A DNA stretch of 32,000 nucleotides from Dendronalium phyllosphericum CENA369 (GTDB taxonomy: Bacteria; Cyanobacteriota; Cyanobacteriia; Cyanobacteriales; Nostocaceae). Position numbers and translations under genes: made by a program. The notes beneath the pieces were generated by a model. That model had not been told where the DNA came from. It was given only the letters and a program-made list of their open reading frames with translations, and did no database searches. Below, in pieces: positions 13,456-27,739 of this stretch; the first letter of the stretch is position 1; every line of letters begins with the position of its first letter. Location of the stretch: the NCBI RefSeq assembly GCF_016056275.1, contig NZ_JAECZA010000316.1, positions 2,656 through 34,655 on the forward strand. Direction: 5' to 3'.

Positions 13456-14379
13456 ATGAGTCCCAGACGAGCAAGCCAACCACCTGCTGATAGAAGCAAA
13501 CTCAAGAACGTCGCCCTGTTCAAAGAGGATGATGAGAATTTAGTTCCTACTAAGGTGTCACTGGACAAGATTATTCTCCCCTCTACTCAACCTCGGCGTT
13601 ATTTTGACCCCAAAGCTATGCAATCTTTGGTGGAGTCGGTGAAACGTGAAGGCATCCTCCAGCCTTTATTGGTTAGACCAGTAGGGGATAAGTATGAGTT
13701 GGTGGCAGGAGAGCGCAGATATAGGGCAGCACAAGAAGCAGCTTTAACAGAAGTGCCGATAACGGTGCGGGAGATGTCGGATGAGCAAGCGGTACAGTAT
13801 GCGCTCACCGAGAATCTACAACGGTCAGACTTAAACCCAATAGAAGAAACTGAAGGAACCTTGCAACTGTTAGCGCTGCGATTGGGATGCGAAACAGCAG
13901 CAGTGTCTACTGTACTCTACAGAATGGAGAATGAAGCCAAAGGAAAAATTACCCGAAACGTTTCGGGTAATTCCGAGGCAGAAATAGTAGAAAAAGTGTT
14001 CGCTGAATTGGGAAAGATGAATTGGCAATCATTTGTTCGCACTCGGCTACCACTGTTGAAACTGCCAGAGGAGATTTTATCAGCCCTGCGTGCTGGACAA
14101 ATTGAGTACACCAAGGGCAAGGAGATTGCCAAGCTGACATCGAAAGAAGAAAGAATTGAACTCCTAGAAGCTGCAATTTCGCTATCTTTGTCCCTTTCAG
14201 AAATTCAACAGCAGGTCAAAGCCAAACAACCAGTTGCCACACCTCCACCACTGCAAAGTCGTTTAGAGGCTACATACAAGAAAGCGAAAAGATCAAAGGT
14301 GTGGGACAATCCCCAGAAGCAGAAAAAACTAGAATCTTTGTTGAGAGAGTTGGAAACTTTGATGGCTGATGAGGGGTAG
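13456..14379 (+). CDS. parB: ParB/Spo0J-family partition protein
   Basis: LQPLLVRPVGDKYELVAGERRYRAAQEAAL and ALTENLQRSDLNPIEE are classic ParB box motifs. The ATG immediately follows the parA stop. Confidence 0.9.
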   Translation: MSPRRASQPPADRSKLKNVALFKEDDENLVPTKVSLDKIILPSTQPRRYFDPKAMQSLVESVKREGILQPLLVRPVGDKYELVAGERRYRAAQEAALTEVPITVREMSDEQAVQYALTENLQRSDLNPIEETEGTLQLLALRLGCETAAVSTVLYRMENEAKGKITRNVSGNSEAEIVEKVFAELGKMNWQSFVRTRLPLLKLPEEILSALRAGQIEYTKGKEIAKLTSKEERIELLEAAISLSLSLSEIQQQVKAKQPVATPPPLQSRLEATYKKAKRSKVWDNPQKQKKLESLLRELETLMADEG

Positions 14380-14495
14380 GGTTTAAACGTATAAAAATCC
14401 CGAAGCGGAGAAAATCACTCATTAACCCCAACATAAAAGTTTTGACAAGGTTTACATCTTAACGAGCGTGCCTATCAGATGTAGGGTAATTCACT

Positions 14496-14912
14496 CTAAT
14501 TCTTTTCTAAAAATTCTTGAACAGTCAGAATCTCAATTCCTCTCCACGGGTTTAGCACTAGCAGATCATCATCTCCGGTCACAATACATTCTGCTTTTCC
14601 ACTGACAGCTAATTCTAGATATTTGTTATCTTTTGGATCTCGACATTCATTAATCTGTTCAGTTACTTTAATGAACTGTACAGTTTCGGACAAATCCACC
14701 AGGAAATCGTTTCGTTCTTCTGGCGTGATGTACCGATTAAATTTGGGTCGAGCGAGTACCTGTTCTAGCTCTAGCCAAATGGACTCGGACACCAACAATT
14801 CTCCTAAGTCTTGAGCTTTTCTGAGTGCGCGATCTGGTTTGCTCCCTGGTAATAACACCGCGCTAATGATGACATTGACATCACACACAAACCGTCTTTT
14901 ATTCGTCGTCAT
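14496..14912 (-). CDS. PIN-domain toxin of a toxin-antitoxin pair
   Basis: FVCDVNVIISAVL, CRDPKDNKYLELAV and CIVTGDDDLL give the PIN acidic-residue pattern. It overlaps the upstream small ORF by 14 nt. Confidence 0.8.
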   Translation of the reverse strand: MTTNKRRFVCDVNVIISAVLLPGSKPDRALRKAQDLGELLVSESIWLELEQVLARPKFNRYITPEERNDFLVDLSETVQFIKVTEQINECRDPKDNKYLELAVSGKAECIVTGDDDLLVLNPWRGIEILTVQEFLEKN

Positions 14913-15399: not shown

Positions 15400-17550
15400 C
15401 TACAGCCTATTCACAATATTTCCATTAAACCAGGCAATCTTCTTTAAGTCATGACATAACCATTCATAAGCTAGCTCAGTTGCAGAGTTTGGTTTGAATA
15501 CATCTAGTACTTCTGAATTTATAGAAGCGTAAAGCCATGTTGATGCTTCTTTCCTTAGTGATAACAGTTGACTGTTCAAAACAGAAATAGAATAATCACA
15601 GCCTTTTGGAAATAAATTTTCTTTTGTGGGAAAAAAGCACAAGTCTACGCAGCTTTGTTTGCCTTTCGGCAGTGGTTCCCAATAAGATATTATCCAAGGT
15701 TGGTTATTATATGAATTTGGTAAAATAATTTTTCCTACAAAACGCGCTGGCAGCGTTACTGCCGTTGTCAGCCTGGGCGCAAATTTGGAAAAATACGTAT
15801 TAACTAGTTGCTGGTATCCCTCAATAGCACCTTCGTAAACAGCTTTTGCACGAACTAATAATTGTAGTTCGGAGTAGCTCTCCCATATCCATCCATCTGT
15901 AATATCAATATCTGGTTCAGGCCACGGAGAATGCAACTCGGCTTCTCCATCTTGGCGGAGGCTGTTAACTTGAGCTATAAGGTGCTTAAGACCGTAGCAG
16001 TATTCGTACTCGTTTACCCAAGAAGGAATATTCAATGATGACTTAGAAAGACATTCTTCAATTTCACTCAGAGAAATAGGACTATAATTTAACTCCCCAC
16101 GACTAGTAACTATAAGTGCGGTCTGCCAAACAATTTCTTTAAAAATTGATCCGTGGTTGACTGGCAGCATACGCTTTTCCAATAATTGAGATAGTGAACT
16201 ACTAAGCTCATTAAGCGTCAAATTCCAAGCCAAAGCTGATTTATGATTAGCCACCTTAACGCCTGTTAATCCAAACCAATTGGATAATAATTCTGGCTCA
16301 GAAAATGGCGATATAACAATATCAGGCAGATTCTCATCACCACAGTACCAACCAGTTGTCAGATACATTTCGTCTGCGTCAACACCAATTGGTAAAAGCG
16401 TATTATCCTCACGTACTGGTGCAATTAACTTAGAAAGTGGAGCAATACCATCTATCCATGCCTGCATCGCTGTTCGTATTCTTCGCCCAAATTCCAGTGA
16501 TAATGGTAAAGGAACTGATTGTGTGACGTTCCATCTTGTTATTGCCAGCTCTTCCTTGACAATCTCTGAAATAAATGCAGGATGTTTCTGGACTAGTGGC
16601 ACAAGTACCTTTGATACTTGCTCATAACTGTAATTACCAACAAAGATAGCTAGCGGATAGCGCCAACGTTCGAGCCGCTGTGGCTCAAGTTTGAGATCAT
16701 TGGGGTCAATGATGCCAGCAGCTAAACTTTGCGCTGCAAACCATTGTGTTAGAATTGGCAGCGGGAAACCAATAGTTCCTGCATTCTCAACAACTAACCC
16801 CGTATTTAAAAGCATCTGAAATTCTGATGTTGTTCCGCCGATGTCAGTCTTAGAAACTACACCTATACTACAGTCAGTAGCTTGAGCAGCAAGGCATAGT
16901 AGTAATTGCTCAACATTAGAGTTGTTTGCTCTTGCTTTTTCGAGGGAACGTTCAACAAGATTTGACAGTAAATCCCCAGGCGAGGTTGATGCTATTGTGC
17001 CTTGGTTTTTTAAATAGACACCAAGCAATACTGCAAATAAAGGTCGGCGAATAGCATGACGGATGGACTCCGGCCATTGGGAAGAAACATATGGCGGAAT
17101 TGGTTGTTTTGAAATTCTTTCTACAAGAGCATATGCTTCATTCTCTGTAAGTGGAGGAACTTGAACAGCCTCTTCAACTTTAGATAAAGCGGGGATAGCT
17201 CTGCTAGTAATTACTAGGGTAGTTTTTTCCCATGTATTAACAAGAATGCGAGCTTCATTAAGTAAATGTGCTGCTAAGGCGCTTCCTGCTTCGTCAGCCC
17301 CGTCAATGATTGCGGTAACACCTTGTGAGAAGGACTGTCCTAGCTTGCTGATTTCTTCTTCTATAGTTTTTTGTAACTGTCCTGCCACCTGCTGCGCTTT
17401 TAAATCCACAGGTATAGGAGCTGCGGGATTTTTGCGGGCCTGTTTAATTGCATCTTGGAAGAGGCGTTGTGCAAGCAATGACTTACCTACACCAAAATCA
17501 CCGATTAGTATTATTAAAGGGTTTTCATCATTAGGTTGAAACTTAGACAA
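15400..17550 (-). CDS. NACHT-type STAND NTPase (NLR-like) with non-repetitive C-terminal region; frame stays open upstream to 17715
   Basis: Walker A is LIGDFGVGKS and the NACHT-style Walker B is AIIDGADEAG. The ~450-aa C-terminal region has no recognisable repeats. The only start is TTG 17550, and the 55 codons upstream are stop-free and in frame with the 149-aa ORF. Confidence 0.8.
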   Translation of the reverse strand: MSKFQPNDENPLIILIGDFGVGKSLLAQRLFQDAIKQARKNPAAPIPVDLKAQQVAGQLQKTIEEEISKLGQSFSQGVTAIIDGADEAGSALAAHLLNEARILVNTWEKTTLVITSRAIPALSKVEEAVQVPPLTENEAYALVERISKQPIPPYVSSQWPESIRHAIRRPLFAVLLGVYLKNQGTIASTSPGDLLSNLVERSLEKARANNSNVEQLLLCLAAQATDCSIGVVSKTDIGGTTSEFQMLLNTGLVVENAGTIGFPLPILTQWFAAQSLAAGIIDPNDLKLEPQRLERWRYPLAIFVGNYSYEQVSKVLVPLVQKHPAFISEIVKEELAITRWNVTQSVPLPLSLEFGRRIRTAMQAWIDGIAPLSKLIAPVREDNTLLPIGVDADEMYLTTGWYCGDENLPDIVISPFSEPELLSNWFGLTGVKVANHKSALAWNLTLNELSSSLSQLLEKRMLPVNHGSIFKEIVWQTALIVTSRGELNYSPISLSEIEECLSKSSLNIPSWVNEYEYCYGLKHLIAQVNSLRQDGEAELHSPWPEPDIDITDGWIWESYSELQLLVRAKAVYEGAIEGYQQLVNTYFSKFAPRLTTAVTLPARFVGKIILPNSYNNQPWIISYWEPLPKGKQSCVDLCFFPTKENLFPKGCDYSISVLNSQLLSLRKEASTWLYASINSEVLDVFKPNSATELAYEWLCHDLKKIAWFNGNIVNRL

Positions 17551-17715
17551 AGGTGCGCCAATAGATGTATCATTGGCAAGTTCAATCGCTTGGCTGCGAG
17601 TTACACCAGCAGCTTGCCACAGAGATATACACCGACTTATGGATAGTCGATCTAGTTCTTCTAATCTATCAGTGAGGGGATTATACTTTACCCGATCCTG
17701 GTCGGGTGGCTTCAG

Positions 17716-17718
17716 TCA
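17716..17718 (-). other. in-frame TGA between the 149-aa module and the NACHT ORF (candidate readthrough site or nonsense mutation)
   Basis: 17716 minus 17548 is 168, a multiple of 3. None of the 55 intervening triplets is a stop. The next base after TGA is C. Confidence 0.9.
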
Positions 17719-18165
17719 CAAGTTTATAGTTTGATTTTGGATGTTAATACTAGACTTTATTCCTTGAGCTAAGTTCACAACTTTTTCAATGCTATTCGTG
17801 ATCGCGCTTTGGTAATTACTCTGCTTTTCTCTAAGTGCTTTATCCAGTTCAGAATTATGCTTAGTAGCTTCTTTTACATCATTTCCCAAAGCTTCTACTG
17901 CCATCTTAATTTCTTGGTCTGCTTGTGCTGCTTTCTTCACCTCTTCTACTAAGACAGCTTCACCAATATCTTCTTGTCCATCAGGTGGTAGCGCTAAAGG
18001 TTCCACTACTGCTTGTAAAGCATTTGCTGTCTCAGGGAACTTTCTTTTCAAAAGTTGCATTACCTTTTCCGCAGCTTGATCTAAAGCTTTTTCTGTTGAC
18101 CAATCAATAATTTTCCCTGATAGCCAAATGGCAAACGCGATCGCTCCAGTAGTCAGTGGCTCCAT
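17716..18165 (-). CDS. 149-aa helical module protein with hydrophobic N-terminal helix and N/Q/I-rich tail; paralog of 24481-24894
   Basis: MEPLTTGAIAFAIWLSGKIIDWS.. and EDIGEAVLVEEVKKAA..EIKMAVEALGNDV are shared with the other copy. GAGGTAGCAC lies before the ATG. The tail is GIKSSINIQNQTINL. Confidence 0.7.
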   Translation of the reverse strand: MEPLTTGAIAFAIWLSGKIIDWSTEKALDQAAEKVMQLLKRKFPETANALQAVVEPLALPPDGQEDIGEAVLVEEVKKAAQADQEIKMAVEALGNDVKEATKHNSELDKALREKQSNYQSAITNSIEKVVNLAQGIKSSINIQNQTINL

Positions 18166-18287: not shown

Positions 18288-18962
18288 CTAATTGCCAAAC
18301 CTGATAGTCCAGGAGTCATCTCGCAAATCTGGCGGGAGTTCTGCGGGAAACTCATCAGTAGCATCTATCATGACACTAAAGTGTTGCGAGGCTTGATTTC
18401 CTAACCTTTTGATTTCACGCAACCACTTTGCCAGGTTCTTACCCATAACATCAGGATTAGAGGTATCGAGAATCAGCAGACGGACTCCGCTAGTAGCCAT
18501 CCGTCGCAACCGTTTCTCAATTTGCTTAGATGTAATTGATGAGGGTCTAATGCGGTAGGGGTCAGCAACATCGAAACTCATGACAGCTACACTGTATCGA
18601 CCAACTTTTACGTGATCACCATTATCAATACTGCCCATGAAAATGAAAACTTCGTGGTGAGGGGGGCAGCATTCGTGATCGACAACGTTCAAAACGTTAG
18701 TGGCCATTTCACTGTTTAGATATTGATGAGTTGTTGACTCATCCAGCCATAAAGTTCCAAGCCCATCTTTTTCTGGGTAAATGAATTCACCTTTGTCGGG
18801 GCGAAACTCTCCAACATTAATTAAGGCATACCCTTTGCCAAACTCCCGCTTCATCTGATGTATCTGCTTAAACGCCTTCGCCACAAAACTTGTATCTTCA
18901 AGCACTTGTGAGCAGAAGTTACCTAAAGCTTGCTGCAAAATTGAATTGGCATCCACAATCAA
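18288..18962 (-). CDS. hypothetical protein (224 aa), no recognisable motifs
   Basis: Long ORF on the same strand, 122 nt upstream of the 149-aa/NACHT locus. Only a TTG start is available at the 5' end; the next Met is residue 36. Confidence 0.5.
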   Translation of the reverse strand: MIVDANSILQQALGNFCSQVLEDTSFVAKAFKQIHQMKREFGKGYALINVGEFRPDKGEFIYPEKDGLGTLWLDESTTHQYLNSEMATNVLNVVDHECCPPHHEVFIFMGSIDNGDHVKVGRYSVAVMSFDVADPYRIRPSSITSKQIEKRLRRMATSGVRLLILDTSNPDVMGKNLAKWLREIKRLGNQASQHFSVMIDATDEFPAELPPDLRDDSWTIRFGN

Positions 18963-19194: not shown

Positions 19195-21453
19195 CTAAAG
19201 GGATCTCCCTCTACTCTGTCTTCTTTCTTGTTGCCGCTTTTCTTCTATTATTTGTTGCAATACGCGCTCTGCTTCACGCCAAAAGCCGAGGTCAAGAGAG
19301 TCTACTGACCCTACATTAATCGGTGAATACTCAAGCTCACCTGACTGGTTTCGGTTGACCGCCACTCGAAATATTTCACCTCGTTCATCATGGGTAAACA
19401 CCAATTCTCTACCCTGTTTTTCTAAAGTTGCTCGTTTGAATCTCAGGCTATTTGAGCCACTTTCTCTTAATTGCCAATTGATTAATTCAACAGCAACAGG
19501 CACAGCGAAGGCTAAATATTCGGACTGTAACTGCTGTTTTTGGTCAAGTTGCTGTGATGGTTGTTCTTGCTTTGATGCCAATTGATTGTTAGCGATTAGA
19601 ACTAATGCTTTAGCTTCATCAGCAGTCCATCCGGCTGGACTGCCTAGTATAATTTCTTCAACTTCTTCGACTGACTTATTATCTAATAGCGCCAAGGTAG
19701 CAATTTCTTTGTCTCGGTCAGTCACTAATAAGTTTTGTAAGTCGGTGCTGTAATACTTATATAACTCGGCTCTTAGTTCCTCTTTTAGTTTTGGTTGATC
19801 TGTGGTTAGAGTTGAAGCTTTATTAAGAGCGTTCGCATCCACTGCTTTTTGTGATCTGTGGAGTTGCTCCAAATAAACAATCACTGCAAAGAGGTCATCG
19901 AATGTGGTTTTTCCGGCTTTAAGTTGCTGCCGATATTGAGATAGTTGTTCGGTTAATTGTGGTAACGTTTCAATCAAGGCTGACTCAACTACTGATTGTT
20001 CAATAAAGTTAGCGATTGCATCCACTGCTTTTTGTAATGAAAGTTGTTGCTCCAAATCAGTAATTGCCGTTGACAAGTCGTTTAATGCGATTCTTCCTTC
20101 TTTTAGCTGCTGCTGATGCCCGTGTAATTGTTCTAGAAATTGTGGCAACCCTTCAACCAAGGCTGACTCAACTGCTCTTGAGTCAATATAGTTAACGATT
20201 GCATCCACTGCTTTTTGTGATATAAGTTGTTGCTCCTGTTGAGCAATCACCGCTCTTAGGTCGTCTAATGTAGTTCTTTCTTCTTTTAATTGCTGCTGAT
20301 ACAGTAACAATTGTTCTGTTAATTCTGTTAATTTTGGTAATGTTTCAACTAAGGCTGACTCAACTGCTCTTGAGTCAATATAGTCAACAATTGCATCCAC
20401 TGCTTTTTGTGATGTAAGTTGTTGCTCCTGTTGAGCAATCACTGCTCTTAGGTCGTCGAATGTAGTTCTTTCTGCTTTTAACTGCTGCTGATAAAGTGAC
20501 AGTTGTTCTGTTAATTCTGTTAATTGTGGTAACGTTTCAACTAAGACTGACTCAACTGCTGACTGTTCAATATAGTTAACGATCACATTTATGAGTTCTT
20601 GGTTGTCAACTGCTCGCCCGACATGATTATGCAACAGTTGCTCAATTCGCTCATCATCCCGTTGTGGCTGATAGTCAATTTCTTTATGTTTTTGCAGTCC
20701 AGGCCAAGTATAGGCAGGCCCCAAAGATGTACCGCTAAATTTCTGCCCGTTCCACGAGTAAGAGATGCCTTTACTTTTGCCGTTGCGTGTTACACCGTGA
20801 CGAACTTCTACGCCTTGTAGTTGCAGTCGTTCAATAACTTGGGGCATGATCGGTCTATTTACCGTGGCGCGGTCGATGAGTTCAATTAGTTGTTGTTTGA
20901 TGGGACGTTCTTGTGGCGAGAGGCGATCGCCTTTAATGTATTCAAGCTGCTCTCGCTCTAGTCGTCTTTGTTGCCCAATACTTGGGTTGCGGGTTAATTT
21001 ATCGTGGCTGCTGTGAGTTTGTTGTAACCCGTAATCCCGTTCTAGCTGCCGGATAATACTTTCACTGCGTTTGTAATCCCAGCTATCATGAACTATCTTG
21101 CCGTTGTCCAAACGGATGCGACTAGCGCAGATATGGATGTGGTCGTGCTGAGTGTTGCTGTGTCTGTAGACTACATACTGGTTGCTGTCAAAACCCATCT
21201 CTTCAAGGTAGCGTTGAGCGATTTCGTTCCAGGTTGCGTCATCGAGTCGTTCGCCTTGGGGTAGAGATAGTGATGCGTGGTAAACTACTCTGTCGGCTTC
21301 ATAGTTCAATTGACGCGAGATTTTGAATTCAACAGCCAGGGCGCGGGGGTTTCTGCCGCCCATGTTGCCACCAATAAGTTTGGCTCCTTCTTGAGATTGG
21401 AGATAATTGAGCAGTCCGCGAAATCCTCGCCCCTTAGTCTGGTTGCCAATCAT
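19195..21453 (-). CDS. MOB relaxase (MobA/VirD2-type relaxase domain) with repeat-containing coiled-coil C-terminal half
   Basis: GRGFRGLLNYL carries the catalytic Tyr context, with YHASLSLP and the histidine triad HSNTQHDHIHICASRI. ATG 21453 (MIGNQTKGRG) is preferred; the ORF track uses TTG 21492. Confidence 0.9.
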   Translation of the reverse strand: MIGNQTKGRGFRGLLNYLQSQEGAKLIGGNMGGRNPRALAVEFKISRQLNYEADRVVYHASLSLPQGERLDDATWNEIAQRYLEEMGFDSNQYVVYRHSNTQHDHIHICASRIRLDNGKIVHDSWDYKRSESIIRQLERDYGLQQTHSSHDKLTRNPSIGQQRRLEREQLEYIKGDRLSPQERPIKQQLIELIDRATVNRPIMPQVIERLQLQGVEVRHGVTRNGKSKGISYSWNGQKFSGTSLGPAYTWPGLQKHKEIDYQPQRDDERIEQLLHNHVGRAVDNQELINVIVNYIEQSAVESVLVETLPQLTELTEQLSLYQQQLKAERTTFDDLRAVIAQQEQQLTSQKAVDAIVDYIDSRAVESALVETLPKLTELTEQLLLYQQQLKEERTTLDDLRAVIAQQEQQLISQKAVDAIVNYIDSRAVESALVEGLPQFLEQLHGHQQQLKEGRIALNDLSTAITDLEQQLSLQKAVDAIANFIEQSVVESALIETLPQLTEQLSQYRQQLKAGKTTFDDLFAVIVYLEQLHRSQKAVDANALNKASTLTTDQPKLKEELRAELYKYYSTDLQNLLVTDRDKEIATLALLDNKSVEEVEEIILGSPAGWTADEAKALVLIANNQLASKQEQPSQQLDQKQQLQSEYLAFAVPVAVELINWQLRESGSNSLRFKRATLEKQGRELVFTHDERGEIFRVAVNRNQSGELEYSPINVGSVDSLDLGFWREAERVLQQIIEEKRQQERRQSRGRSL
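19847..20613 (-). repeat. four in-frame tandem coding repeats (210, 192, 183, 183 nt) inside the relaxase gene
   Basis: The marker GCATCCACTGC recurs at 19835, 20018, 20201 and 20393. The protein units are AVD(A/N)..VESALVETLP.LTEQL..YQQQLK....DDL.AVI..QEQQL.SQK. Confidence 0.85.
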
Positions 21454-21832
21454 CGGTTTCCTCATCCTCCTCAGATATGAAGGTTTTGGCAATTTCTCGT
21501 TGGCAGTGCCGCAACAGTTCTAGTAGTTCGTTTAATAGTTCTGGATCTGCTGGCGGTGGCAGTTGCATTTTGATGGCAGTGTTGGCAACTTTGGCCAATT
21601 GGTTGATGTTGTTGCCGATGCGGGAAAGTTCCAAGTAGGTGGCTACTGTAACTCTGCCCAGTCGCGGCGGCGGTGGTGGAATTGGTCGCAGTAACATACA
21701 ACGTCTTGTCAGTTCTGCCAAGCTCATACTCGCGTCTTCTGCTTTTGACCGAACCATCTCATATTCAATTGGGCTGAACCGCGCTTGCAGTCTTTTGGTG
21801 CGGATGAGTGACGACGAAGAACGCTTGGTCAT
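21434..21832 (-). CDS. mobC: MobC-family relaxosome accessory protein
   Basis: RFSPIEYEMVRSKAEDASMSLAELTRRC (RHH-like) and IGNNINQLAKVAN are typical of MobC. It lies immediately upstream of, and overlaps, the relaxase gene. Confidence 0.85.
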   Translation of the reverse strand: MTKRSSSSLIRTKRLQARFSPIEYEMVRSKAEDASMSLAELTRRCMLLRPIPPPPPRLGRVTVATYLELSRIGNNINQLAKVANTAIKMQLPPPADPELLNELLELLRHCQREIAKTFISEEDEETDDWQPD

Positions 21833-22284: not shown

Positions 22285-22812
22285 GTGACTAAAGATAGTA
22301 TTCCTAAGTCAAAAATTCCAGAGGCTCTTGATGCTCTCCGCGCTTTGGGTGCTAAGGAATTAGATGATATCCCGGCACGAGAGGCTATTAGAAAAATGCG
22401 CCGTCAAATTGAACGGGTGCTACGTCTTGGCTATAGCTACGAGGAAGTGTCAGAAACTTTAGCTGGTTTAGATATCAATATCAGTGCAGAACGTATCCGT
22501 TATCTACTTAGCGATATCAAAAGGTCTACGCGCAAAAAATCAGTAGCTGAGAACCTTCAGGATAATACTGATACTCAAGTTGTTAATGAGCAGAATTTAG
22601 GCGAGAATTCAGCGACAGAAAATAGCAGTAGTCAGTCTGTTAAAAAATCTTCAGCTAAATCGCAAGCAAAATCAAAATCTGCAAAGTCAGTCTCAACAAA
22701 TTCTCAAACTAATACAAATACTAAAAATTTGGCTGAGGCAGAGTCAAATGGGTATCAAAATACCTATCGCCCTGCTTTTATACCTCAAATCATTTCAGAT
22801 GAGGATTTATAA
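22285..22812 (+). CDS. putative DNA-binding protein with S/K/N-rich low-complexity tail (leader-operon gene 1)
   Basis: The N-terminal half has an HTH-like segment (GYSYEEVSETLAGLDINISAERIRYLL). The C-terminal half is low complexity. The start is GTG. It is transcribed divergently from mobC. Confidence 0.5.
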   Translation: MTKDSIPKSKIPEALDALRALGAKELDDIPAREAIRKMRRQIERVLRLGYSYEEVSETLAGLDINISAERIRYLLSDIKRSTRKKSVAENLQDNTDTQVVNEQNLGENSATENSSSQSVKKSSAKSQAKSKSAKSVSTNSQTNTNTKNLAEAESNGYQNTYRPAFIPQIISDEDL

Positions 22813-23589
22813 ATGGCGGTTAAATCAAAATCATCAGCTGATTCTGCTAAACAAAAACCTACTAATCAGCCAAAGACTGTTGGGCGTTTAGTTTTGGTGA
22901 CTGGCGATAAGGGCGGCACTGGTAAAAGTGTGGTGGCAAGAATTCTCCTCGATATTTACCGCCACAGAAATATCAACTGTATTGCTTACGAATGCGACCA
23001 GTCAAATCCTCAGCTTTATCGCCACTATAATAAGGTGCAACCTGGGGTGTCAGGGTTGAAACTTAATCAGCGCGGTGGTGCTGATGCTTTGCAGGATGAT
23101 TTGAAGCGTTTATCTCCTAAAGTATCTCTGGTGGATCTCCCTGCTGGGGCTGCGGAATATTTTGAGTCGGTGGCTAAGGATATTTTTCTGTTTCAAAATG
23201 CCCAGCGTTTGGGTTATCGCATCACTATGGTATCGGTTTTAGGACGAGTCAAGGATAGTGTTTTGCAGTTAAAACGCTTAGTGGATTTTTGCGGCGACCG
23301 TGTTGATTATGTGGTTGTGAAAAATCTTTACTGGGGTGATGAACACAAGTTTACTCGCTATAACAATTCTAAGGTCAAACAATCTGTAGAAGAATTGGGG
23401 GCAATTGAACTGTTATTGCCTGAGTTATACGACGATATTTTTGATTTGATTGACTCAAAAGACCTTACCTTCAGGGAGGCGTTAGAGCATGAGGATTTTA
23501 GTTTGAGTAATCAGTCGAGAGTTTATGGCTGGATTGATGCGGTTGAGTCTGAGTTTGCTAAGGCTGCTGTGCAATTGGGGTTAGAGTAA
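22813..23589 (+). CDS. ParA/MinD-like P-loop ATPase (TraL-like position in a mobilization leader operon)
   Basis: Deviant Walker A is VTGDKGGTGKSVVA, with VSLVDLPAG. The ATG abuts the upstream stop. Confidence 0.7.
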   Translation: MAVKSKSSADSAKQKPTNQPKTVGRLVLVTGDKGGTGKSVVARILLDIYRHRNINCIAYECDQSNPQLYRHYNKVQPGVSGLKLNQRGGADALQDDLKRLSPKVSLVDLPAGAAEYFESVAKDIFLFQNAQRLGYRITMVSVLGRVKDSVLQLKRLVDFCGDRVDYVVVKNLYWGDEHKFTRYNNSKVKQSVEELGAIELLLPELYDDIFDLIDSKDLTFREALEHEDFSLSNQSRVYGWIDAVESEFAKAAVQLGLE

Positions 23590-24480: not shown

Positions 24481-24894
24481 ATGGAGCCACTAACTGCGGG
24501 TGCGATCGCTTTTACAAGCTGGGTGGTAGGTAAACTGATTGACTGGTCAACAGACAAAACTTTTGATATAGCCTCACAACGGCTGATGCAACTCCTTGTT
24601 GAAAAATCGCCAGACACAGCCAAAAGCTTAACAGCAGCAGCAGAGCGTGCCGCTTTAGCGCCTAATGAACGAGAAGATATTGGGGAAGCAGTCTTGGTAG
24701 AAGAAGTGTCCAAGGCAGCAGCCAAAGATGCAGAAATTAAAGCAGCAGTAGAAGCTTTAGGAAATGATGTCAATCAAGCTGTAAACGAGAATCGTGAAGT
24801 TGAAAAGCGTTTGACAACTGTGATTGAGAATTGGAAAGGGATAAGCATAAAGGGCGGAATTACTACAATCAATAATCCTACCCTTAACTTTTGA
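24481..24894 (+). CDS. 137-aa helical module protein, paralog of 17716-18165
   Basis: MEPLTAGAIAFTSWVVGKLIDWS.. and EDIGEAVLVEEVSKAA..EIKAAVEALGNDV match the other copy. GAGGTAGTAC lies before the ATG. The tail is GISIKGGITTINNPTLNF. Confidence 0.7.
   Translation: MEPLTAGAIAFTSWVVGKLIDWSTDKTFDIASQRLMQLLVEKSPDTAKSLTAAAERAALAPNEREDIGEAVLVEEVSKAAAKDAEIKAAVEALGNDVNQAVNENREVEKRLTTVIENWKGISIKGGITTINNPTLNF
24892..24894 (+). other. in-frame TGA between the 137-aa module and the NB-ARC ORF
   Basis: 24481 and 24988 are in the same frame. The 31 intervening codons have no stop and no ATG/GTG/TTG. The next base after TGA is C. Confidence 0.9.
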
Positions 24895-24987
24895 CTACAG
24901 TCGTCCTCTGGGGAAAGGACAAAGTTAAATCCCCCAAATAATGTTCCTCGTAGTGGTGTAGTTAAGTTCATCGGACGAGAATCAGAA

Positions 24988-26013
24988 TTGGAGCAACTAC
25001 ACACGCAATTGCAGCAAGTAAACTTAGTTTCTATTTCTGCGATAGAAGGCATGGGAGGAGTGGGCAAAACAGAACTCGCTATTCAGTACACTCAGCAGTA
25101 TAAATCGTCTTATGAAGGAGGTATCTGCTGGCTATTTGCTAGAGAATTTAACGTAGGTACTCAGGTTATCGGGTTTGCCCAATCTCAACTGAACCTGAAA
25201 ATTCCAGAAGGATTAGAATTGTATGACCAAGTAGCTTTTTGCTGGCGAAACTGGTGTGAAGGTGATGTTCTGCTGGTATTGGATGATGTGGTTAACTATC
25301 GCCGAGATATCGAACCATACTTGCCGTCTGCTGCATTCACCCGCTTCAAGATAGTGATGACAACTCGGCAAAAGTTTAGTCCACCCGTTCAGTCGCTGTC
25401 TCTAGATGTGCTGTCTCCAGAACAATCTCTAGAATTGTTGACAGTTTTAATTGGGAAAGAACGAGTTCAGCAGGACTTTGAGATAGCCAACACACTTTGT
25501 CATTGGTTAGAGTATCTACCTCTGGGAATCGAACTTGTTGGGCGCTATTTGCTTGAGCGAAAGGAGCTATCGCTTTTCACACTGCTGTTCCGGCTGCAAG
25601 AGAAAGCCTTGGAGCGGCAAGCAATTAGATACGCCGCTCTTAAGCTAAATGAGGAAAATAGTACTTCAACAGGTAGACGGGGGGCAGAAGCTGCGTTTGA
25701 GTTGAGTTGGGTTGAGCTAGATAACAACAGTCAGCACTTAGGTAAGTTATTGAGTGTGTTTGCATCTGCACCAATTCCCTGGTACTTAGCTGAGTCAGCC
25801 GAGCGAAACTATTGTGAAAACTCTAATGGTGGTAACAAGTTTGATGTTGAGGAAATGGAGGAAGCAAGAGCTAAGTTATTAAGATTTCACTTGCTACAAC
25901 TTTTGCAGCAGCAGGAGCAAATCTACCGTCTACATTCGCTAATTCGTGAGTTCTTTAGAAGCAAGTTAGAAGGAGAACCTGATGTTACAACTTCGGACTC
26001 AAAAGCAAATTGA
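24988..26013 (+). CDS. NB-ARC-type STAND NTPase domain (NLR-like); coding sequence evidently begins upstream of the TTG, and the C-terminus is frameshifted into the TPR ORF
   Basis: GMGGVGKTELA (P-loop), VLLVLDDV (Walker B), KIVMTTRQ, and YLPLGIELVGRYL (GLPL-like). The conserved pre-P-loop motif FIGRESELEQL straddles or precedes the TTG start. Confidence 0.8.
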   Translation: MEQLHTQLQQVNLVSISAIEGMGGVGKTELAIQYTQQYKSSYEGGICWLFAREFNVGTQVIGFAQSQLNLKIPEGLELYDQVAFCWRNWCEGDVLLVLDDVVNYRRDIEPYLPSAAFTRFKIVMTTRQKFSPPVQSLSLDVLSPEQSLELLTVLIGKERVQQDFEIANTLCHWLEYLPLGIELVGRYLLERKELSLFTLLFRLQEKALERQAIRYAALKLNEENSTSTGRRGAEAAFELSWVELDNNSQHLGKLLSVFASAPIPWYLAESAERNYCENSNGGNKFDVEEMEEARAKLLRFHLLQLLQQQEQIYRLHSLIREFFRSKLEGEPDVTTSDSKAN

Positions 26014-27739
26014 AGCAAAGAAATTAAAACGTGCTGTGGCTGCTGCAATGGTAGCAATTTCTCAAAAAATACCTGATTCACCAACTCAAGAGGATATTAA
26101 ATTAGTAAAAGATGCAATACCACATTTAGCGGAGGTGGCACAAAATCTAACTGATGTAGTTAGTGATCAAGATTTAATTTGGCCTTTTGTAGGCTTAGGT
26201 AAATTTTATCGGGGACAGAGTTTGTATGCGATCACACAAGCTTGGTGTGAGGAATGCGTAACAGTATTAAAATCCCGCCTTGGGAATGAACATCCTCATG
26301 TAGCAACTAGTCTGAATAATTTAGGAGAAGTCTATTGTTCTCAAGGACGTTACAGCGAAGCCGAACCTTTGCTCATGCAAGCTTTGGTGATGAGGAAACC
26401 CTTGCTAGGAGACGAACACCCAGATGTCGCAACTACTATGAACAATTTGGCATCTCTCTACAGTTCCCAAGGACGGTACACCGAAGCGGAACCTTTGCTC
26501 ATCAAAGCTTTGGCAACGTATAAACACCTGTTGGGGGATAAACACCCTAATGTCGCCATTAGCCTGAATAATTTGGCAAAACTTTACAATTCCCAAGGAC
26601 GGTACACCGAAGCGGAACCTTTGCTCATCGAAGCTTTGGCAACGTATAAACACCGATTTGGGGATGAACACCTTAATGTCGCCATTAGCCTGAGTAATTT
26701 GGCATCTCTCTACAGTTCCCAAGGAAGGTACACCAAAGCCGAACCTTTGTATATCAAAGCTTTGGAAATGACAAAACGCCTGCTGGGGGATGAACACCTT
26801 GATGTCGCATCTAGTATGAACTGTTTGGCTGGACTTTACGACTCTCAGGGACGCTACACTGAAGCTGAACCCTTGTACGTTGAGGCTTTGGTGATGAGAA
26901 AACGCCTGCTGGGGGATGAACACCCTGATGTTGCATCTAGTATGAACAATTTGGCATTTCTCTACAGTTCCCAAGGACGGTACACCAAAGCCGAACCTTT
27001 GTATATCAAAGCTTTGGAAATGACAAAACGTCTGTTGGGGGATGAACACCCTCATGTAGCACAAAGCCTGAATAATTTGGCATCTCTCTACCATTCTCAA
27101 GGACTTTACAGCGAAGCCGAACCTTTGTTCATCCAAGCTTTGGTGATGAGGAAACGCTTGCTGGGAGATAAACACCCTGATACTATATCTAGCCTGAATA
27201 ATTTAGCATTTATCTACCATTCTCAAAGACGTTACAGCGAAGCTGAACCTTTGTTCGTCCTAGCTTTGGTGATGAGAAAACGCCTGTTGGGGGATGAACA
27301 CCCTGATGTTGCAACTAGTCTGAATAATTTGGGAGAACTCTATTATTTTCAAGGACGTTACAGCGAAGCCGAACCTTTGCTCATCGAAGCTTTGGTGATG
27401 TGGAAACGCTTGCTGGGAGATGAACACCCTCATGTGGCACAAAGCCTGAGCAATTTAGCAGAACTCTACCGTTCCCAAAGACGCTATAACGAAGCCGAAC
27501 CTTTATTCATCCAAGCTTTAGCGATGAAAAAACGTTTGCTGGGAGATAAACACCCAGATATTGCATCTAGCCTGAACAATTTGGCAGGACTCTACTATTT
27601 TTTAGGACGTTACAGTGAAGCCGAATTTTTGTTAATCGAGACTTTGGAGATTTTGGAACAAGAGTTAGGAGCAAATCATCCCAATATAATCACGACGCAA
27701 AATAATTTGGAATCTTTGCGTCAACGTCGTCAGTCTTAG
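25982..27739 (+). CDS. TPR-repeat (kinesin-light-chain-like TPR_10/12) sensor region of the NLR, encoded in the +1 frame relative to the NB-ARC ORF
   Basis: Eleven ~42-aa repeats of the form HP.VA.SLNNLA.LY.SQGRY.EAEPL...AL.M.KRLLGDE. The frame is open from 25970 and overlaps the NB-ARC ORF end (26013). Confidence 0.8.
   Translation: MLQLRTQKQIEAKKLKRAVAAAMVAISQKIPDSPTQEDIKLVKDAIPHLAEVAQNLTDVVSDQDLIWPFVGLGKFYRGQSLYAITQAWCEECVTVLKSRLGNEHPHVATSLNNLGEVYCSQGRYSEAEPLLMQALVMRKPLLGDEHPDVATTMNNLASLYSSQGRYTEAEPLLIKALATYKHLLGDKHPNVAISLNNLAKLYNSQGRYTEAEPLLIEALATYKHRFGDEHLNVAISLSNLASLYSSQGRYTKAEPLYIKALEMTKRLLGDEHLDVASSMNCLAGLYDSQGRYTEAEPLYVEALVMRKRLLGDEHPDVASSMNNLAFLYSSQGRYTKAEPLYIKALEMTKRLLGDEHPHVAQSLNNLASLYHSQGLYSEAEPLFIQALVMRKRLLGDKHPDTISSLNNLAFIYHSQRRYSEAEPLFVLALVMRKRLLGDEHPDVATSLNNLGELYYFQGRYSEAEPLLIEALVMWKRLLGDEHPHVAQSLSNLAELYRSQRRYNEAEPLFIQALAMKKRLLGDKHPDIASSLNNLAGLYYFLGRYSEAEFLLIETLEILEQELGANHPNIITTQNNLESLRQRRQS
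26288..27676 (+). repeat. about 11 tandem 126-bp coding repeats (TPR units)
   Basis: The periodic DNA and protein repeat is seen directly. It also generates long spurious antisense ORFs. Confidence 0.85.

What the first reader, a model, noticed from the sequence alone, without database searches (positions are those of the whole stretch)
17716..18165. The ~140-aa module looks like a membrane-targeting helical effector with an amyloid-like tail (Bell/BASS-NLR logic), here fused in frame to its NLR
**Shared features of both copies (also 24481-24894).**
- A hydrophobic N-terminal helix: MEPLT(T/A)GAIAF..W..GK(I/L)IDWS.
- A helical acidic core: EDIGEAVLVEEV.KAA..D.EIK.AVEALGNDV.
- A short beta-prone N/Q/G/I/T-rich tail: GIKSSINIQNQTINL and GISIKGGITTINNPTLNF.

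**Known parallel.** Small proteins with an N-terminal HeLo/Bell-type membrane-disrupting helical domain and a C-terminal amyloid signalling motif are described in multicellular bacteria and fungi. They are encoded directly upstream of an NLR that carries the matching motif at its N-terminus.

**What differs here.** The NLR has no motif or start of its own and continues in frame after a leaky-context UGA. My inference is that termination yields the free effector and readthrough yields effector-motif-NLR. One recoded gene would then supply both partners of a templating pair. I have not seen this arrangement described.
Basis: inference. Interest (0 to 1): 0.75.

Follow-up and report, generated by a model that had tools for sequence, protein, structure and literature searches.

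The report
Bell effector joined to NLR by UGA
Two small cell-death effector genes on a cyanobacterial plasmid each run straight into their immune-sensor gene across a conserved UGA stop codon followed by a conserved RNA hairpin, so one gene probably makes both a free effector and a rarer effector-sensor fusion by stop-codon readthrough, an arrangement I found no description of.

Summary
Both ~140-aa modules exist as described (51% identical). Each ends in TGA and continues in frame into a STAND NTPase ORF that has no start codon of its own.

- **Family.** Direct homologues are listed by Dyrka et al. as Bell-domain proteins carrying the BASS7 amyloid-signalling motif. Copy 2's tail matches BASS7.
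- **Two architectures.** In the classic form the Bell gene overlaps (ATGA) an NLR gene whose N-terminus repeats the motif. In the window's form there is one motif copy, then TGA, then the NLR.
- **Conservation.** I found 37 instances of the window's form in cyanobacteria. All have TGA, never a sense codon or TAA/TAG.
- **Junction.** TGA is followed by C or A, an 8-nt spacer (CUACAGYC) and a 5-6 bp hairpin with compensatory changes. Synonymous sites there are strongly constrained.
- **Downstream sensors.** They vary: NB-ARC+TPR, NACHT, nSTAND+WD40, GUN4.

Best reading: programmed UGA readthrough gives abundant Bell-BASS plus rare Bell-BASS-NLR. Readthrough itself, amyloid formation and membrane toxicity are untested. 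I found no publication describing this. It is a new variant of a known kind and of high interest.

The parts
17716..18165 (-). Bell-type effector module, copy 1 (149 aa, stop included). All-helical with a disordered C-terminal tail.
   Evidence: ORF. The identical protein P0001 is in Nostocaceae cyanobacterium CENA369. AF2 model: helices 3-15, 26-42, 44-54, 64-82, 84-101 and 105-133; tail 127-149 has pLDDT <50. Homologues are labelled Bell in Dyrka et al. Table S2.
18097..18165 (-). N-terminal hydrophobic helix MEPLTTGAIAFAIWLSGKIIDWS ('MEPIS'-type motif).
   Evidence: M1, P3 and G7 are invariant in alignment A1. The MEPIS motif of Bell/Hell/Bab is described in 10.1101/2024.11.07.622273.
17719..17787 (-). 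C-terminal tail of copy 1 (EKVVNLAQGIKSSINIQNQTINL). N/Q/I/T-rich and a candidate amyloid-signalling motif, but not a classified BASS family.
   Evidence: The tail is conserved in P0002-P0007 and L063-L067. It was not found in the Dyrka Table S2 text. It occurs only once in the window.
17716..17718 (-). Conserved UGA at the module/NLR junction, copy 1. Followed by C.
   Evidence: All 37 related junctions have TGA.
17708..17715 (-). 8-nt spacer CUGAAGCC between the UGA and the hairpin.
   Evidence: Alignments A2 and A3.
17690..17707 (-). RNA hairpin ACCCGA-CCAGGA-UCGGGU (6 bp, 6-nt loop).
   Evidence: RNAfold predicts it at -8.6 kcal/mol. Covariation of the homologous helix is shown. The covariance model hits this site at 54 bits, E=1e-8.
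15400..17715 (-). In-frame ORF of 771 codons after the UGA. It encodes a P-loop STAND NTPase (GDFGVGKS) with a long C-terminal region of unknown fold. First in-frame start is a TTG 55 codons in.
   Evidence: Pfam NACHT scores 25.1 bits against a cut-off of 26.7. A related junction in L063 leads into a clear NACHT+NCC-H protein.
24481..24894 (+). Bell-type effector module, copy 2 (137 aa, stop included).
   Evidence: It equals P0018 and is 51% identical to copy 1.
24826..24891 (+). BASS7 amyloid-signalling motif ENWKGISIKGGITTINNPTLNF.
   Evidence: It matches the BASS7 entries (…ENWQGINIKGGTNTINNNTFNF) of Dyrka et al. Table S2. The motif is conserved in A1.
24892..24894 (+). Conserved UGA, copy 2. 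Followed by CUA.
24895..24902 (+). 8-nt spacer CUACAGUC (the family consensus).
24903..24920 (+). RNA hairpin GUCCU-CUGGGGAA-AGGAC. It carries two compensatory double changes relative to the consensus GCCCG/CGGGU.
   Evidence: The covariance model hits this site at 65 bits.
24895..26013 (+). In-frame ORF of 372 codons after the UGA, encoding an NB-ARC NTPase. First in-frame start is a TTG 31 codons in, inside the NB-ARC match.
   Evidence: Pfam NB-ARC E=5e-13, residues 29-241.
25982..27739 (+). TPR sensor ORF (585 aa) in another frame, overlapping the end of the NB-ARC ORF by 32 nt. This is the split C-terminal part of the NLR.
   Evidence: Pfam TPR_12 E=1.7e-200. Junction frames are shown. 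TPR 126-nt repeats appear.

Best explanation
Each locus is a one-transcript version of a Bell/BASS-NLR amyloid-signalling immune pair.

**Short product.** The small ORF encodes a Bell-type helical effector with a buried hydrophobic MEPLT helix. By homology it is a membrane-targeting cell-death executor. It ends in a short amyloid-signalling tail: BASS7 in copy 2 and an unclassified N/Q/I/T motif in copy 1.

**The junction.** There is no separate NLR gene with its own start codon and its own motif copy. The NLR ORF follows in frame after a UGA.
- The UGA sits in a weak termination context (UGA-C, mostly UGA-CUA).
- A conserved hairpin, possibly a pseudoknot, lies 8 nt downstream. That would place it at the ribosome's mRNA entrance when the UGA is in the A site.

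**Proposed mechanism.**
- Most ribosomes terminate and release free Bell-BASS.
- A minority read the UGA through, most likely with tRNA-Trp, and make Bell-BASS-NLR.
- The single motif copy therefore ends up on both the effector and the sensor, and readthrough frequency sets the sensor:effector ratio.
- On ligand recognition the NLR part oligomerises and brings its BASS segments together. It nucleates the amyloid fold and templates the free effector pool, which then attacks the membrane (abortive infection or regulated cell death).

**Shown.** Family identity, architecture, conservation of the UGA, the hairpin with covariation, the absence of any alternative start, and the diversity of downstream sensors.

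**Inferred.** That readthrough occurs, its efficiency and the inserted residue, amyloid templating, and membrane toxicity.
For: **1. Family identity.**
- Homologues are the Bell/BASS7 proteins of Dyrka et al. Table S2.
- In 18 related loci the next gene is an NB-ARC NLR whose N-terminus repeats the tail motif and co-varies with it. Sixteen of these have an ATGA stop/start overlap.

**2. The UGA is conserved.**
- 17 genome loci, both window copies and 3 further contigs were all found through the protein. They carry module-TGA-long in-frame ORF of 100-1526 codons.
- A metagenome scan for the downstream element alone, without requiring TGA, gave 15 of 15 with TGA exactly 9 nt upstream and a MEPLT/MEPLS module before it.
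- No junction has a sense codon, TAA or TAG at that position.

**3. The RNA element.**
- The helix at columns 24-28/38-42 is 96-98% paired.
- 3 of 5 pairs show compensatory double changes. Sliding the partner columns gives at most 58% pairing.
- In copy 2 a synonymous CGG>AGG change restores a pair.
- Synonymous codon choice is fixed: TCG 13/14 against 9% background, CGG 14/15 and 9/9 against 17%, CCC 15/15 against 23%.
- The 45 nt after the stop fold more stably than in other loci of the family, p=6e-6.
- The covariance model hits only these junctions in 561 kb.

**4. No other route to the NLR.**
- No conserved in-frame ATG/GTG/TTG precedes the NB-ARC domain. The first conserved ATG is the Met of the GMGGVGKT P-loop.
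- No promoter-like or terminator-like site lies between module and NLR on the coding strand.

**5. The fused protein is viable.** Natural fusions without a stop exist but are rare: P0169 (909 aa, Bell+NACHT) and P0159, out of 151 representatives.

**6. No second motif copy.** The tail motif occurs once in the window, so a motif-bearing NLR can arise only by readthrough.

**7. The code is standard.** TGA terminates other genes in the window.
Against: - No expression, proteomic or ribosome-profiling data were available. Readthrough is not demonstrated.
- The hairpin is short (5-6 bp). Structure-stimulated readthrough of a cellular bacterial gene is, to my knowledge, without an established precedent.
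- The second (pseudoknot) stem has only weak covariation.
- Foldseek found no significant match of the module model (pLDDT 70) to HeLo, MLKL or CC folds. Pfam, PADLOC and PDB sequence searches were also negative.
- BASS7 itself has not been tested for amyloid formation in the papers I read. Copy 1's tail matches no classified BASS family.
- Some junctions look decayed: L055 has a TAG two codons after the TGA, L057 and L062 have short downstream ORFs, and L038 is frameshifted.
- The window's copy 2 has its NLR split between NB-ARC and TPR.
- Many instances are related by descent, so the counts are not independent events.
Confidence: 0.62

Rival explanations
1. Termination-reinitiation. Ribosomes always stop at the UGA. 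The hairpin holds the ribosome or mRNA so that translation restarts at the next codon (CUA/CUG/AUA/AUC) or nearby without a canonical start. This would give Bell-BASS and a separate NLR that carries no motif.
For: - The classic relatives are translationally coupled by an ATGA overlap, so coupling is ancestral.
- The codon after the UGA is always [C/A]U[N]. In some loci it is CUG, AUA or AUC, which are weak near-cognate starts.
Against: - The most common codon is CUA (11/19), which differs from AUG at two positions. To my knowledge it is not a start codon.
- The NLR would then lack any motif. That leaves the conserved BASS tail without a partner.
- I know of no precedent for start-codon-free reinitiation in bacteria.
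Confidence: 0.12
2. The UGA is decoded efficiently as a sense codon, either as selenocysteine through a SECIS-like hairpin or by a dedicated suppressor tRNA. The locus would then be simply an all-in-one Bell-NLR with no functional short product.
For: - A UGA followed by a nearby hairpin is the bacterial SECIS layout.
- All-in-one Bell-NLR fusions exist (P0169).
Against: [quoted passage not shown]
- None of 37 junctions has Cys or any other sense codon in place of the UGA. Selenoprotein families normally have Cys homologues.
- Only 13 nt separate the UGA from the loop, and the loop starts with AA. From my own knowledge this does not fit the bacterial SECIS model.
- A redox residue between an amyloid motif and a linker has no obvious role.
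- The window has no tRNA gene and no Rfam match.
Confidence: 0.06
3. The two ORFs are independent. The hairpin is an mRNA stability or processing element at the 3' end of the Bell gene. The NLR is made from an internal non-conserved start, or is a decaying pseudogene.
For: - Gene callers start the NLR 100-170 nt downstream.
- Several loci show damage downstream.
Against: - The frame stays open for 300-1500 codons directly from the UGA in most loci.
- The stretch before the first possible start is conserved as protein (SPERERVK-NPP-NIP-FVGRE) and belongs to the NB-ARC Pfam match.
- The in-frame relation and the TGA identity would not be conserved (37/37) if the ORFs were independent.
- There is no U-tract terminator.
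Confidence: 0.08
4. The conserved 30-40 nt junction is mainly a DNA-level recombination handle that lets Bell/BASS cassettes be swapped between different sensor genes. Its RNA fold would be incidental. This does not exclude readthrough.
For: - Nearly the same junction links very different tails upstream to very different NTPases downstream: NB-ARC+TPR, NACHT+NCC-H, nSTAND1+WD40, nSTAND3/5 and GUN4.
- The same copy-1-type module and tail sits before a NACHT-like protein in the window, a NACHT+NCC-H protein in L063 and NB-ARC+TPR proteins in L066/L067.
Against: - Compensatory base changes that keep pairing argue for selection on a folded strand, not on sequence identity.
- This rival does not explain why the stop is always TGA.
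Confidence: 0.08

Closest known systems
Bell-domain/BASS - NLR gene pairs of filamentous bacteria (Dyrka et al., bioRxiv 10.1101/2020.01.06.895854), specifically BASS7
   Same: - The protein family is the same: homologues of the window's modules are listed there as Bell proteins.
- Copy 2 carries the same BASS7 motif.
- The host group is the same (Nostocaceae and other filamentous cyanobacteria).
[quoted passage not shown]
- The module is collinear with and immediately upstream of the NLR.
   Different: - In the described pairs there are two genes, each with its own start, often overlapping by 4 nt, and the motif is present twice.
- Here there is one motif copy and no NLR start codon. The two ORFs are joined in frame by a conserved UGA plus hairpin.
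- A pipeline that requires a motif at an annotated NLR N-terminus cannot see such loci. None of the tails specific to this architecture that I searched for appears in their table.
Bab/Agp (BASS11) antiphage system of E. coli ECOR25 (bioRxiv 10.1101/2024.11.07.622273)
   Same: - A small helical Bell-related effector with a conserved N-terminal hydrophobic helix (MEPIS-type) and a C-terminal ~20-aa amyloid motif.
- The motif is shared with the adjacent sensor.
- The outcome is abortive infection with membrane alteration.
   Different: [quoted passage not shown]
- It uses two separate genes and no recoding.
- No detectable sequence or fold match to the window's module was found.
Fungal HET-S/NWD2 and HELLP/PNT1-type amyloid signalling pairs
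   Same: The logic is the same. An NLR carries an N-terminal amyloid motif that templates the C-terminal motif of a HeLo/Hell pore-forming effector encoded next door.
   Different: - These are eukaryotic systems with separate genes.
- Fungal 'all-in-one' NLRs carry the effector domain directly, with no stop codon in between.
Programmed stop-codon readthrough in viruses: phage Qbeta coat/A1 (UGA) and MuLV gag-pol (UAG, 8-nt spacer, pseudoknot). From my own knowledge; MuLV also PMC4178896.
   Same: - One ORF gives an abundant short product and a rare C-terminally extended product at a fixed ratio.
- The stop context is leaky.
- In MuLV a structured RNA begins 8 nt after the stop, the same spacing as here.
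   Different: - Those are viral genes.
- Here the signal sits in cellular or plasmid immune genes of bacteria.
- The stimulator is a short hairpin of a sequence family not in Rfam.
- The extension is a whole 40-170 kDa sensor.
All-in-one bacterial NLRs with an N-terminal MEPIS-type helical domain (Avs2, bNACHT02/11/23 as cited; P0169 here)
   Same: The predicted readthrough product has exactly this domain order: N-terminal Bell-like helical domain followed by a STAND NTPase.
   Different: These have no internal stop, no amyloid motif requirement and no free effector pool.

Membership tests
Bell domain (Dyrka et al. 2020) | Sequence homology to proteins defined as Bell-domain proteins | tested here: met
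   - P0041 (E=1.9e-14 to copy 1) has the tail PTIINENWQGINIKGGTNTINNNTFNF at residues 112-138, as does AKG20974.1 in Table S2.
- The L011/P0023 pair equals OUL32057.1/OUL32058.1.
Bell domain (Dyrka et al. 2020) | ~100-aa all-alpha domain with a conserved hydrophobic N-terminal helix (MEPIS-type), followed by an unstructured C-terminal motif | tested here: met
   - The AF2 model has six helices and a tail with pLDDT <50.
- M1, P3 and G7 are invariant.
- The motif is described.
Bell domain (Dyrka et al. 2020) | Fold related to HeLo / MLKL 4HB / CC-HeLo membrane-targeting bundles | tested here: inconclusive
   - The best Foldseek PDB hit has E=0.8, and none is HeLo or MLKL. An Rx-CC domain appears at E=3.4.
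- The model is of medium confidence only. The literature notes large topological variation among Bell folds.
Bell domain (Dyrka et al. 2020) | Membrane-disrupting / cell-death activity | not testable with these tools
   Needs expression and permeabilisation assays.
BASS7 amyloid-signalling motif | Sequence motif ENWQGINIKGGxNTIxNxTFNF at the C-terminus of the Bell protein | tested here: met
   Copy 2 reads ENWKGISIKGGITTINNPTLNF. Copy 1 does NOT carry it: its tail GIKSSINIQNQTINL matched nothing in Table S2.
BASS7 amyloid-signalling motif | A second, co-varying copy at the N-terminus of the adjacent NLR | tested here: not met
   - The second copy is present in 18 related loci.
- It is absent in the window: each tail occurs once, and the NLR ORFs begin directly with the linker after the UGA.
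- This is the feature that the readthrough model replaces.
BASS7 amyloid-signalling motif | Forms amyloid / prion-like fibrils | not testable with these tools
   The main text of the paper I read mentions experiments on BASS1 and BASS3 only. BASS7 does not appear in the main text.
NLR-like STAND NTPase | NB-ARC or NACHT NTPase domain above the curated threshold | tested here: met
   - Copy 2: NB-ARC scores 49.3 bits against a cut-off of 23.5.
- Copy 1 is only borderline: NACHT scores 25.1 against 26.7, with the Walker A motif GDFGVGKS present. For copy 1 alone the result is inconclusive.
NLR-like STAND NTPase | C-terminal repeat sensor domain | tested here: met
   - Copy 2 has a TPR ORF at 25982-27739, but in a separate overlapping frame.
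- Copy 1's C-terminal ~500 aa has no Pfam match.
Programmed stop-codon readthrough (recoding) site | Stop codon identity and position conserved across homologues, with a long in-frame ORF under protein-level conservation and no start of its own | tested here: met
   TGA in 37 of 37 junctions, with ORFs of 100-1526 codons.
Programmed stop-codon readthrough (recoding) site | Weak termination context and a conserved downstream RNA structure at recoding distance | tested here: met
   - The +4 base is C in most junctions and A in the rest; +5 is invariably U.
- The hairpin starts 8 nt after the UGA and shows covariation.
- Synonymous-site constraint is strong.
Programmed stop-codon readthrough (recoding) site | Both terminated and extended products detected | not testable with these tools
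   Needs western blot, mass spectrometry or ribosome profiling.
Bacterial selenoprotein gene (UGA + SECIS) | Cys-containing homologues at the UGA position, and the Sec machinery in the host lineage | tested here: not met
   - No sense-codon homologue among 37 junctions.
[quoted passage not shown]
- The genome of this strain could not be searched for selA/B/C.

The most novel reading that the evidence does not exclude
Filamentous cyanobacteria use a dedicated cis-acting recoding cassette to express an amyloid-signalling immune system from a single ORF.

- The cassette is UGA-CUA, an 8-nt spacer, and a hairpin or pseudoknot.
- Termination gives the executioner (Bell-BASS) and readthrough gives the sensor carrying the same executioner and motif (Bell-BASS-NLR).
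- Translation-termination efficiency would then set, and could regulate, the sensor:effector ratio. RF2 activity might for example change during phage attack or stress.
- The cassette is portable and has been recombined onto many different sensors.

This would be a structure-stimulated programmed readthrough signal in cellular bacterial genes, and a new way of building a templating pair.
Probability: 0.5. Interest if true: 0.88.

Novelty: new variant of a known kind. Interest (0 to 1): 0.8.

Why it matters
- **A rare recoding case in bacteria.** Programmed stop-codon readthrough with a conserved downstream RNA stimulator is textbook for RNA viruses and retroviruses. To my knowledge it is hardly documented for bacterial cellular genes. 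Here a family of at least 37 loci offers a compact, mutable signal that can be tested in a reporter within days.
- **Orphan Bell proteins.** Most Bell proteins in the Dyrka survey had no matched NLR (346 matched gene pairs against 1816 non-redundant Bell C-termini). Loci of this type are invisible to pipelines that need an annotated NLR N-terminus. They may account for part of those orphans, and their NLRs are currently annotated with wrong starts.
- **Stoichiometry in higher-order signalling.** Amyloid and other higher-order immune assemblies need few sensors and many effectors. Setting that ratio through termination efficiency, and placing the motif on both partners from one copy, is an economical solution. 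It also links immune readiness to the state of the translation apparatus.
- **Modular evolution of bacterial NLRs.** The junction joins interchangeable effector cassettes and sensors, which bears on how these proteins evolve by module exchange.

Tried and rejected
- **Protein family libraries.** Pfam and PADLOC scans of the modules gave nothing significant.
- **Structure searches.** The PDB sequence profile search found nothing. Foldseek of the AF2 model against PDB found nothing below E=0.8. A fold-level link to HeLo/MLKL could therefore not be shown.
- **RNA families and tRNAs.** Rfam gave no match at gathering threshold on the whole window, nor at permissive threshold on two junctions. ARAGORN found no tRNA or suppressor tRNA in the window.
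- **Viral contigs.** A scan for the junction element gave no hits.
- **Pseudoknot.** Pairing of the loop GGGA with the downstream UCCC is 89% but has only two single-cell double changes. I keep it as a possibility, not a finding.
- **A-to-I editing of UGA to UGG by TadA.** Rejected: no conserved UACG loop context, and the small GAC-UACA-GUC hairpin is not conserved in copy 1 or L008 (read).
- **Intrinsic terminator or internal promoter between module and NLR.** None was found.
- **Genome-wide UGA reassignment.** Rejected, because other genes in the window end at TGA.
- **Literature.** Four searches combining readthrough with NB-ARC, NLR, amyloid signalling, cyanobacteria or anti-phage found no description. 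The library does not cover most subscription-journal papers.
- **Failed pattern.** My first degenerate DNA pattern was mis-typed and found nothing. It was replaced by a fuzzy regex.
Full report
**1. What is in the window**

The window matches a contig of Nostocaceae cyanobacterium CENA369. Protein P0001 is 100% identical to copy 1 and P0018 is copy 2. The contig looks like a mobilisable plasmid:
- MobA/VirD2 relaxase at 19195-21492 (-)
- NikA/MobC at 21434-21832 (-)
- ParB at 13456-14379 (+)
- Prim-Pol/DUF3987 at 27957-30947 (-)
- a PIN-domain protein at 14496-14912 (-)

Copy 1 of the module is the ORF 17716-18165 (-), 149 aa. Copy 2 is 24481-24894 (+), 137 aa. The two copies are 51% identical, E=6e-33.

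Both end in TGA. The same frame then stays open for 771 codons in copy 1, which has the Walker A motif GDFGVGKS and a Pfam NACHT score just below threshold. It stays open for 372 codons in copy 2, which has an NB-ARC match at E=5e-13.

The first canonical in-frame start codon is 55 codons after the stop in copy 1 and 31 codons after it in copy 2. In copy 2 that is inside the NB-ARC match, which begins at residue 29.

**2. What the module is**

A word-indexed search found 42 relatives, all 108-177 aa. An exhaustive profile search of 1.84 billion representative proteins found 151 relatives. Nearly all are 50-170 aa. Only two are genuine long fusions: P0169 (909 aa, module + NACHT) and P0159 (412 aa).

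Conserved features in alignment A1:
- M1, P3 and G7 in the N-terminal hydrophobic helix
- the acidic core DIGEAVLVEEVKKAA..DPEIK.AVEALGN
- in many members, the tail ENWQGINIKGGxNTIxNxTxNFG(S)K

The AF2 model (pLDDT 70, pTM 0.67) is a six-helix bundle. Helix 1 spans residues 3-15 and the tail 127-149 is disordered.

Pfam, PADLOC, PDB sequence and Foldseek-PDB searches gave no significant match. The literature settles the family assignment instead. Table S2 of Dyrka et al. (bioRxiv 10.1101/2020.01.06.895854) lists direct homologues as Bell-domain proteins paired with NLRs through the BASS7 motif:
- AKG20974.1 of Calothrix sp. 336/3, which has the same tail at the same residues as P0041
- OUL32057.1/OUL32058.1 of Nostoc sp. 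106C, which is my locus L011
- OYE01691.1/OYE01692.1, which is L006

The MEPLT start corresponds to the 'MEPIS' motif that a 2024 preprint describes as common to Bell, Hell, Bab and several antiphage NLR N-termini. That work showed a Bell-related effector (Bab) acting in abortive infection through an amyloid motif shared with its sensor (10.1101/2024.11.07.622273).

Copy 2's tail is BASS7. Copy 1's tail (NLAQGIKSSINIQNQTINL) is conserved among its closest relatives but matched nothing in that table.

**3. Two architectures in one family**

I fetched 48 genome loci encoding relatives. All are from cyanobacteria. I read the frames around the module's stop in each.

*Classic architecture (18 loci).*
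- The module ends …NFGSK. In 16 loci its TGA overlaps the ATG of the next gene (AAATGA).
- That gene is a 260-1090-aa protein, usually an NB-ARC NLR. Its N-terminus repeats the motif (M-T-S-ENWQGINIKGG…).
- Tail and head co-vary. In L011 they read QGVITTGGQTTVKGSTFNF and NLQGIITQGGKVIVQDSTFNF. In L020 they read NWQGINFKNANPTISNNTFNF and NLQGINSKDSNVTIKDNIFNF.

*Window-type architecture (17 loci plus both window copies).*
- There is one motif copy, then TGA, then a long ORF in the same frame (99 to 1526 codons).
- That ORF begins L-Q-(S/P)-P-E-R-E-R-V-K-x-N-P-P…FVGRE, which is the linker and the start of the NTPase domain.

*Orphans.* Nine loci end in TAA with no adjacent in-frame partner.

The window-type form looks like the classic pair with the stop/start overlap and the second motif copy removed. 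BASS7 tails occur in both architectures: W2, L022 and L033 are window-type.

**4. The junction is a conserved nucleotide element**

In the window-type loci the sequence after the stop is conserved at the nucleotide level. The consensus is UGA CUA CAG YCG CCC GAA CGG GAA CGG GUA AAG.

*Synonymous sites are constrained.*

| Codon | Use at the junction | Background in the same ORFs |
|---|---|---|
| TCG (Ser) | 13 of 14 | 9% |
| CGG (Arg, first position) | 9 of 9 | 17% |
| CGG (Arg, second position) | 14 of 15 | 17% |
| CCC (Pro) | 15 of 15 | 23% |

*A hairpin starts 8 nt after the UGA.* The consensus is GCCCG-AACGGGAA-CGGGU.
- In the 19 loci found through the protein it is 97.8% paired, with compensatory double changes at 3 of 5 pairs. 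No shuffle out of 500 reached the observed covariation, and slid registers gave at most 58% pairing.
- With three further protein-selected contigs it is 96.2% paired and has six double-change cells.
- Copy 2 reads GUCCU/AGGAC. This includes a synonymous CGG>AGG change that restores a pair.
- L066 reads GCCCA/UGGGU.
- Copy 1 and L063 read ACCCGA/UCGGGU, which is 6 bp.

*Further support.*
- The first 45 nt after the stop fold more stably than in other loci of the family (Mann-Whitney p=6e-6).
- A possible second stem pairs the loop GGGA with the downstream UCCC, which would make an H-type pseudoknot. It is 89% paired but has little covariation, so I leave it open.
- A covariance model of the element hit only these junctions in 561 kb of related DNA, plus a degenerate copy in L038.
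- Rfam has no such family.

**5. The stop is always UGA**

I scanned metagenome contigs for the hairpin element alone, without specifying the stop.
- There were 15 matches. All 15 have TGA exactly 9 nt upstream.
- Wherever the contig extends far enough upstream, a MEPLT/MEPLS-type module precedes the TGA. Several of these come from more distant subfamilies with other tails: GGTHTHNYNT, GNTIIGGTF, DVNVDTQTINL.

Together with the protein-selected loci this gives 37 junctions. None has a sense codon, TAA or TAG. The base after the stop is C in most and A in the rest, and +5 is always U.

From my own knowledge, UGA-C is the weakest termination signal in E. coli, and UGA-CUA(G) is the classic readthrough context in eukaryotes. 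The latter is also stated in the abstract of 10.64898/2026.07.14.738498.

TGA ends other genes in the window normally. About a quarter of the long ORFs in the window end in TGA, so universal TGA at the junction is not a matter of codon usage. The instances are, however, phylogenetically related.

**6. What follows the junction**

The in-frame ORFs encode different sensors:
- NB-ARC+TPR (W2, L008 and many others)
- NACHT+NCC-H (L063, L043)
- nSTAND1+WD40 (L036)
- nSTAND3/5 (L030)
- a GUN4-domain protein (L001)

The same copy-1-type module and tail precedes a NACHT-like protein in the window, a NACHT+NCC-H protein in L063, and NB-ARC+TPR proteins in L066/L067. The junction therefore behaves as a portable connector.

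**7. Mechanism**

The downstream ORFs are long and conserved as protein. They have no conserved start. The only conserved ATG is the Met of the GMGGVGKT P-loop. No promoter-like or terminator-like site separates them from the module on the coding strand. Each tail motif occurs only once in the window.

The simplest account is programmed UGA readthrough.
- Termination gives free Bell-BASS.
- Readthrough gives Bell-BASS-NLR.
- From my own knowledge, a structure 8 nt after the stop matches the geometry of known recoding stimulators such as MuLV (an 8-nt spacer before a pseudoknot). That would put it at the mRNA entrance when the stop is in the A site.

The long product has the domain order of known all-in-one NLRs and of the rare natural fusion P0169. 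This argues that it can fold and function.

Sensor oligomerisation would nucleate the motif, which would then convert the free effector pool. It is untested.

**8. Rivals**

- *Reinitiation without a start codon.* The codon after the UGA is mostly CUA, and the NLR would be left without a motif.
[quoted passage not shown] There are no Cys homologues, and the loop distance does not fit a bacterial SECIS.
- *Independent ORFs or pseudogenes.* This does not explain the conserved frame, the conserved TGA, or the protein conservation upstream of any possible start. Some loci are visibly damaged, however (L055, L057, L062, L038).
- *A DNA recombination handle.* This is compatible with the shuffling seen, but it does not explain the compensatory changes or the TGA. 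It may coexist with readthrough.

**9. Novelty**

Bell/BASS-NLR pairs and amyloid signalling in antiphage defence are known. So is viral programmed readthrough.

I found no paper describing Bell or NLR genes joined by a conserved stop codon, or a readthrough-type hairpin in such loci. The Dyrka pipeline, by design, would not register these loci. The library I could search is incomplete.

I rate this a new variant of a known kind, with high interest. The signal is compact, widespread in filamentous cyanobacteria and directly testable.

Noticed in passing
window 25982-26013 (and L018 around 6624-6700): The NLR of copy 2 is split. The NB-ARC ORF ends at a TGA (26011-26013) and the TPR ORF starts at an ATG (25982) in another frame, with a 32-nt overlap. 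The close relative L018 is also split at the same domain boundary, but differently: three stops, then an ATG in the same frame. This is either a genuine two-gene sensor or parallel decay.
   Followed up: partly
window 19948-20583: A tandem repeat of 192 nt x 3.4 copies (82% matches) lies inside the C-terminal half of the MobA/VirD2-type relaxase ORF (19195-21492, minus strand). It encodes 64-aa protein repeats.
   Followed up: no
window 13456-14912, 19195-21832, 27957-30947: ParB, a PIN-domain protein, relaxase plus NikA/MobC, and a Prim-Pol/DUF3987 replication protein are all present. The contig looks like a mobilisable plasmid carrying two Bell-NLR loci.
   Followed up: partly
L038 5380-5460: This is a degenerate junction. 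The module ends in TAA, the TGA lies two codons later, and the hairpin region carries indels. The NLR continues in a different frame (…NRVKSNPPQNIP…). It is probably a decayed copy of the recoding cassette.
   Followed up: partly
L055 (match 4662-4685, minus strand), L057, L062 second copy: Some metagenomic junctions have extra stops soon after the UGA. L055 reads TGA CTG TAG, and L057 and L062 have ORFs of only 60 and 111 codons. These are either decaying loci or assembly errors.
   Followed up: no
L001 5439-6521; protein P0159: Bell modules are also linked to GUN4-domain proteins. In L001 the link is the UGA-hairpin junction. In P0159 it is a direct fusion with a transmembrane segment. This partner is not an NTPase.
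   Followed up: no
window 8935-12273 (-), 18288-18962 (-), 22285-23589 (+): Several sizeable ORFs (1112, 224, 175 and 258 aa) have no Pfam match at E<=0.001. The 224-aa ORF lies directly upstream of copy 1.
   Followed up: no
L062 5195-5218 and 8122-8145: One 8.7-kb metagenome contig carries two window-type junctions in tandem orientation. This mirrors the two copies in the window and suggests that such loci cluster.
   Followed up: no
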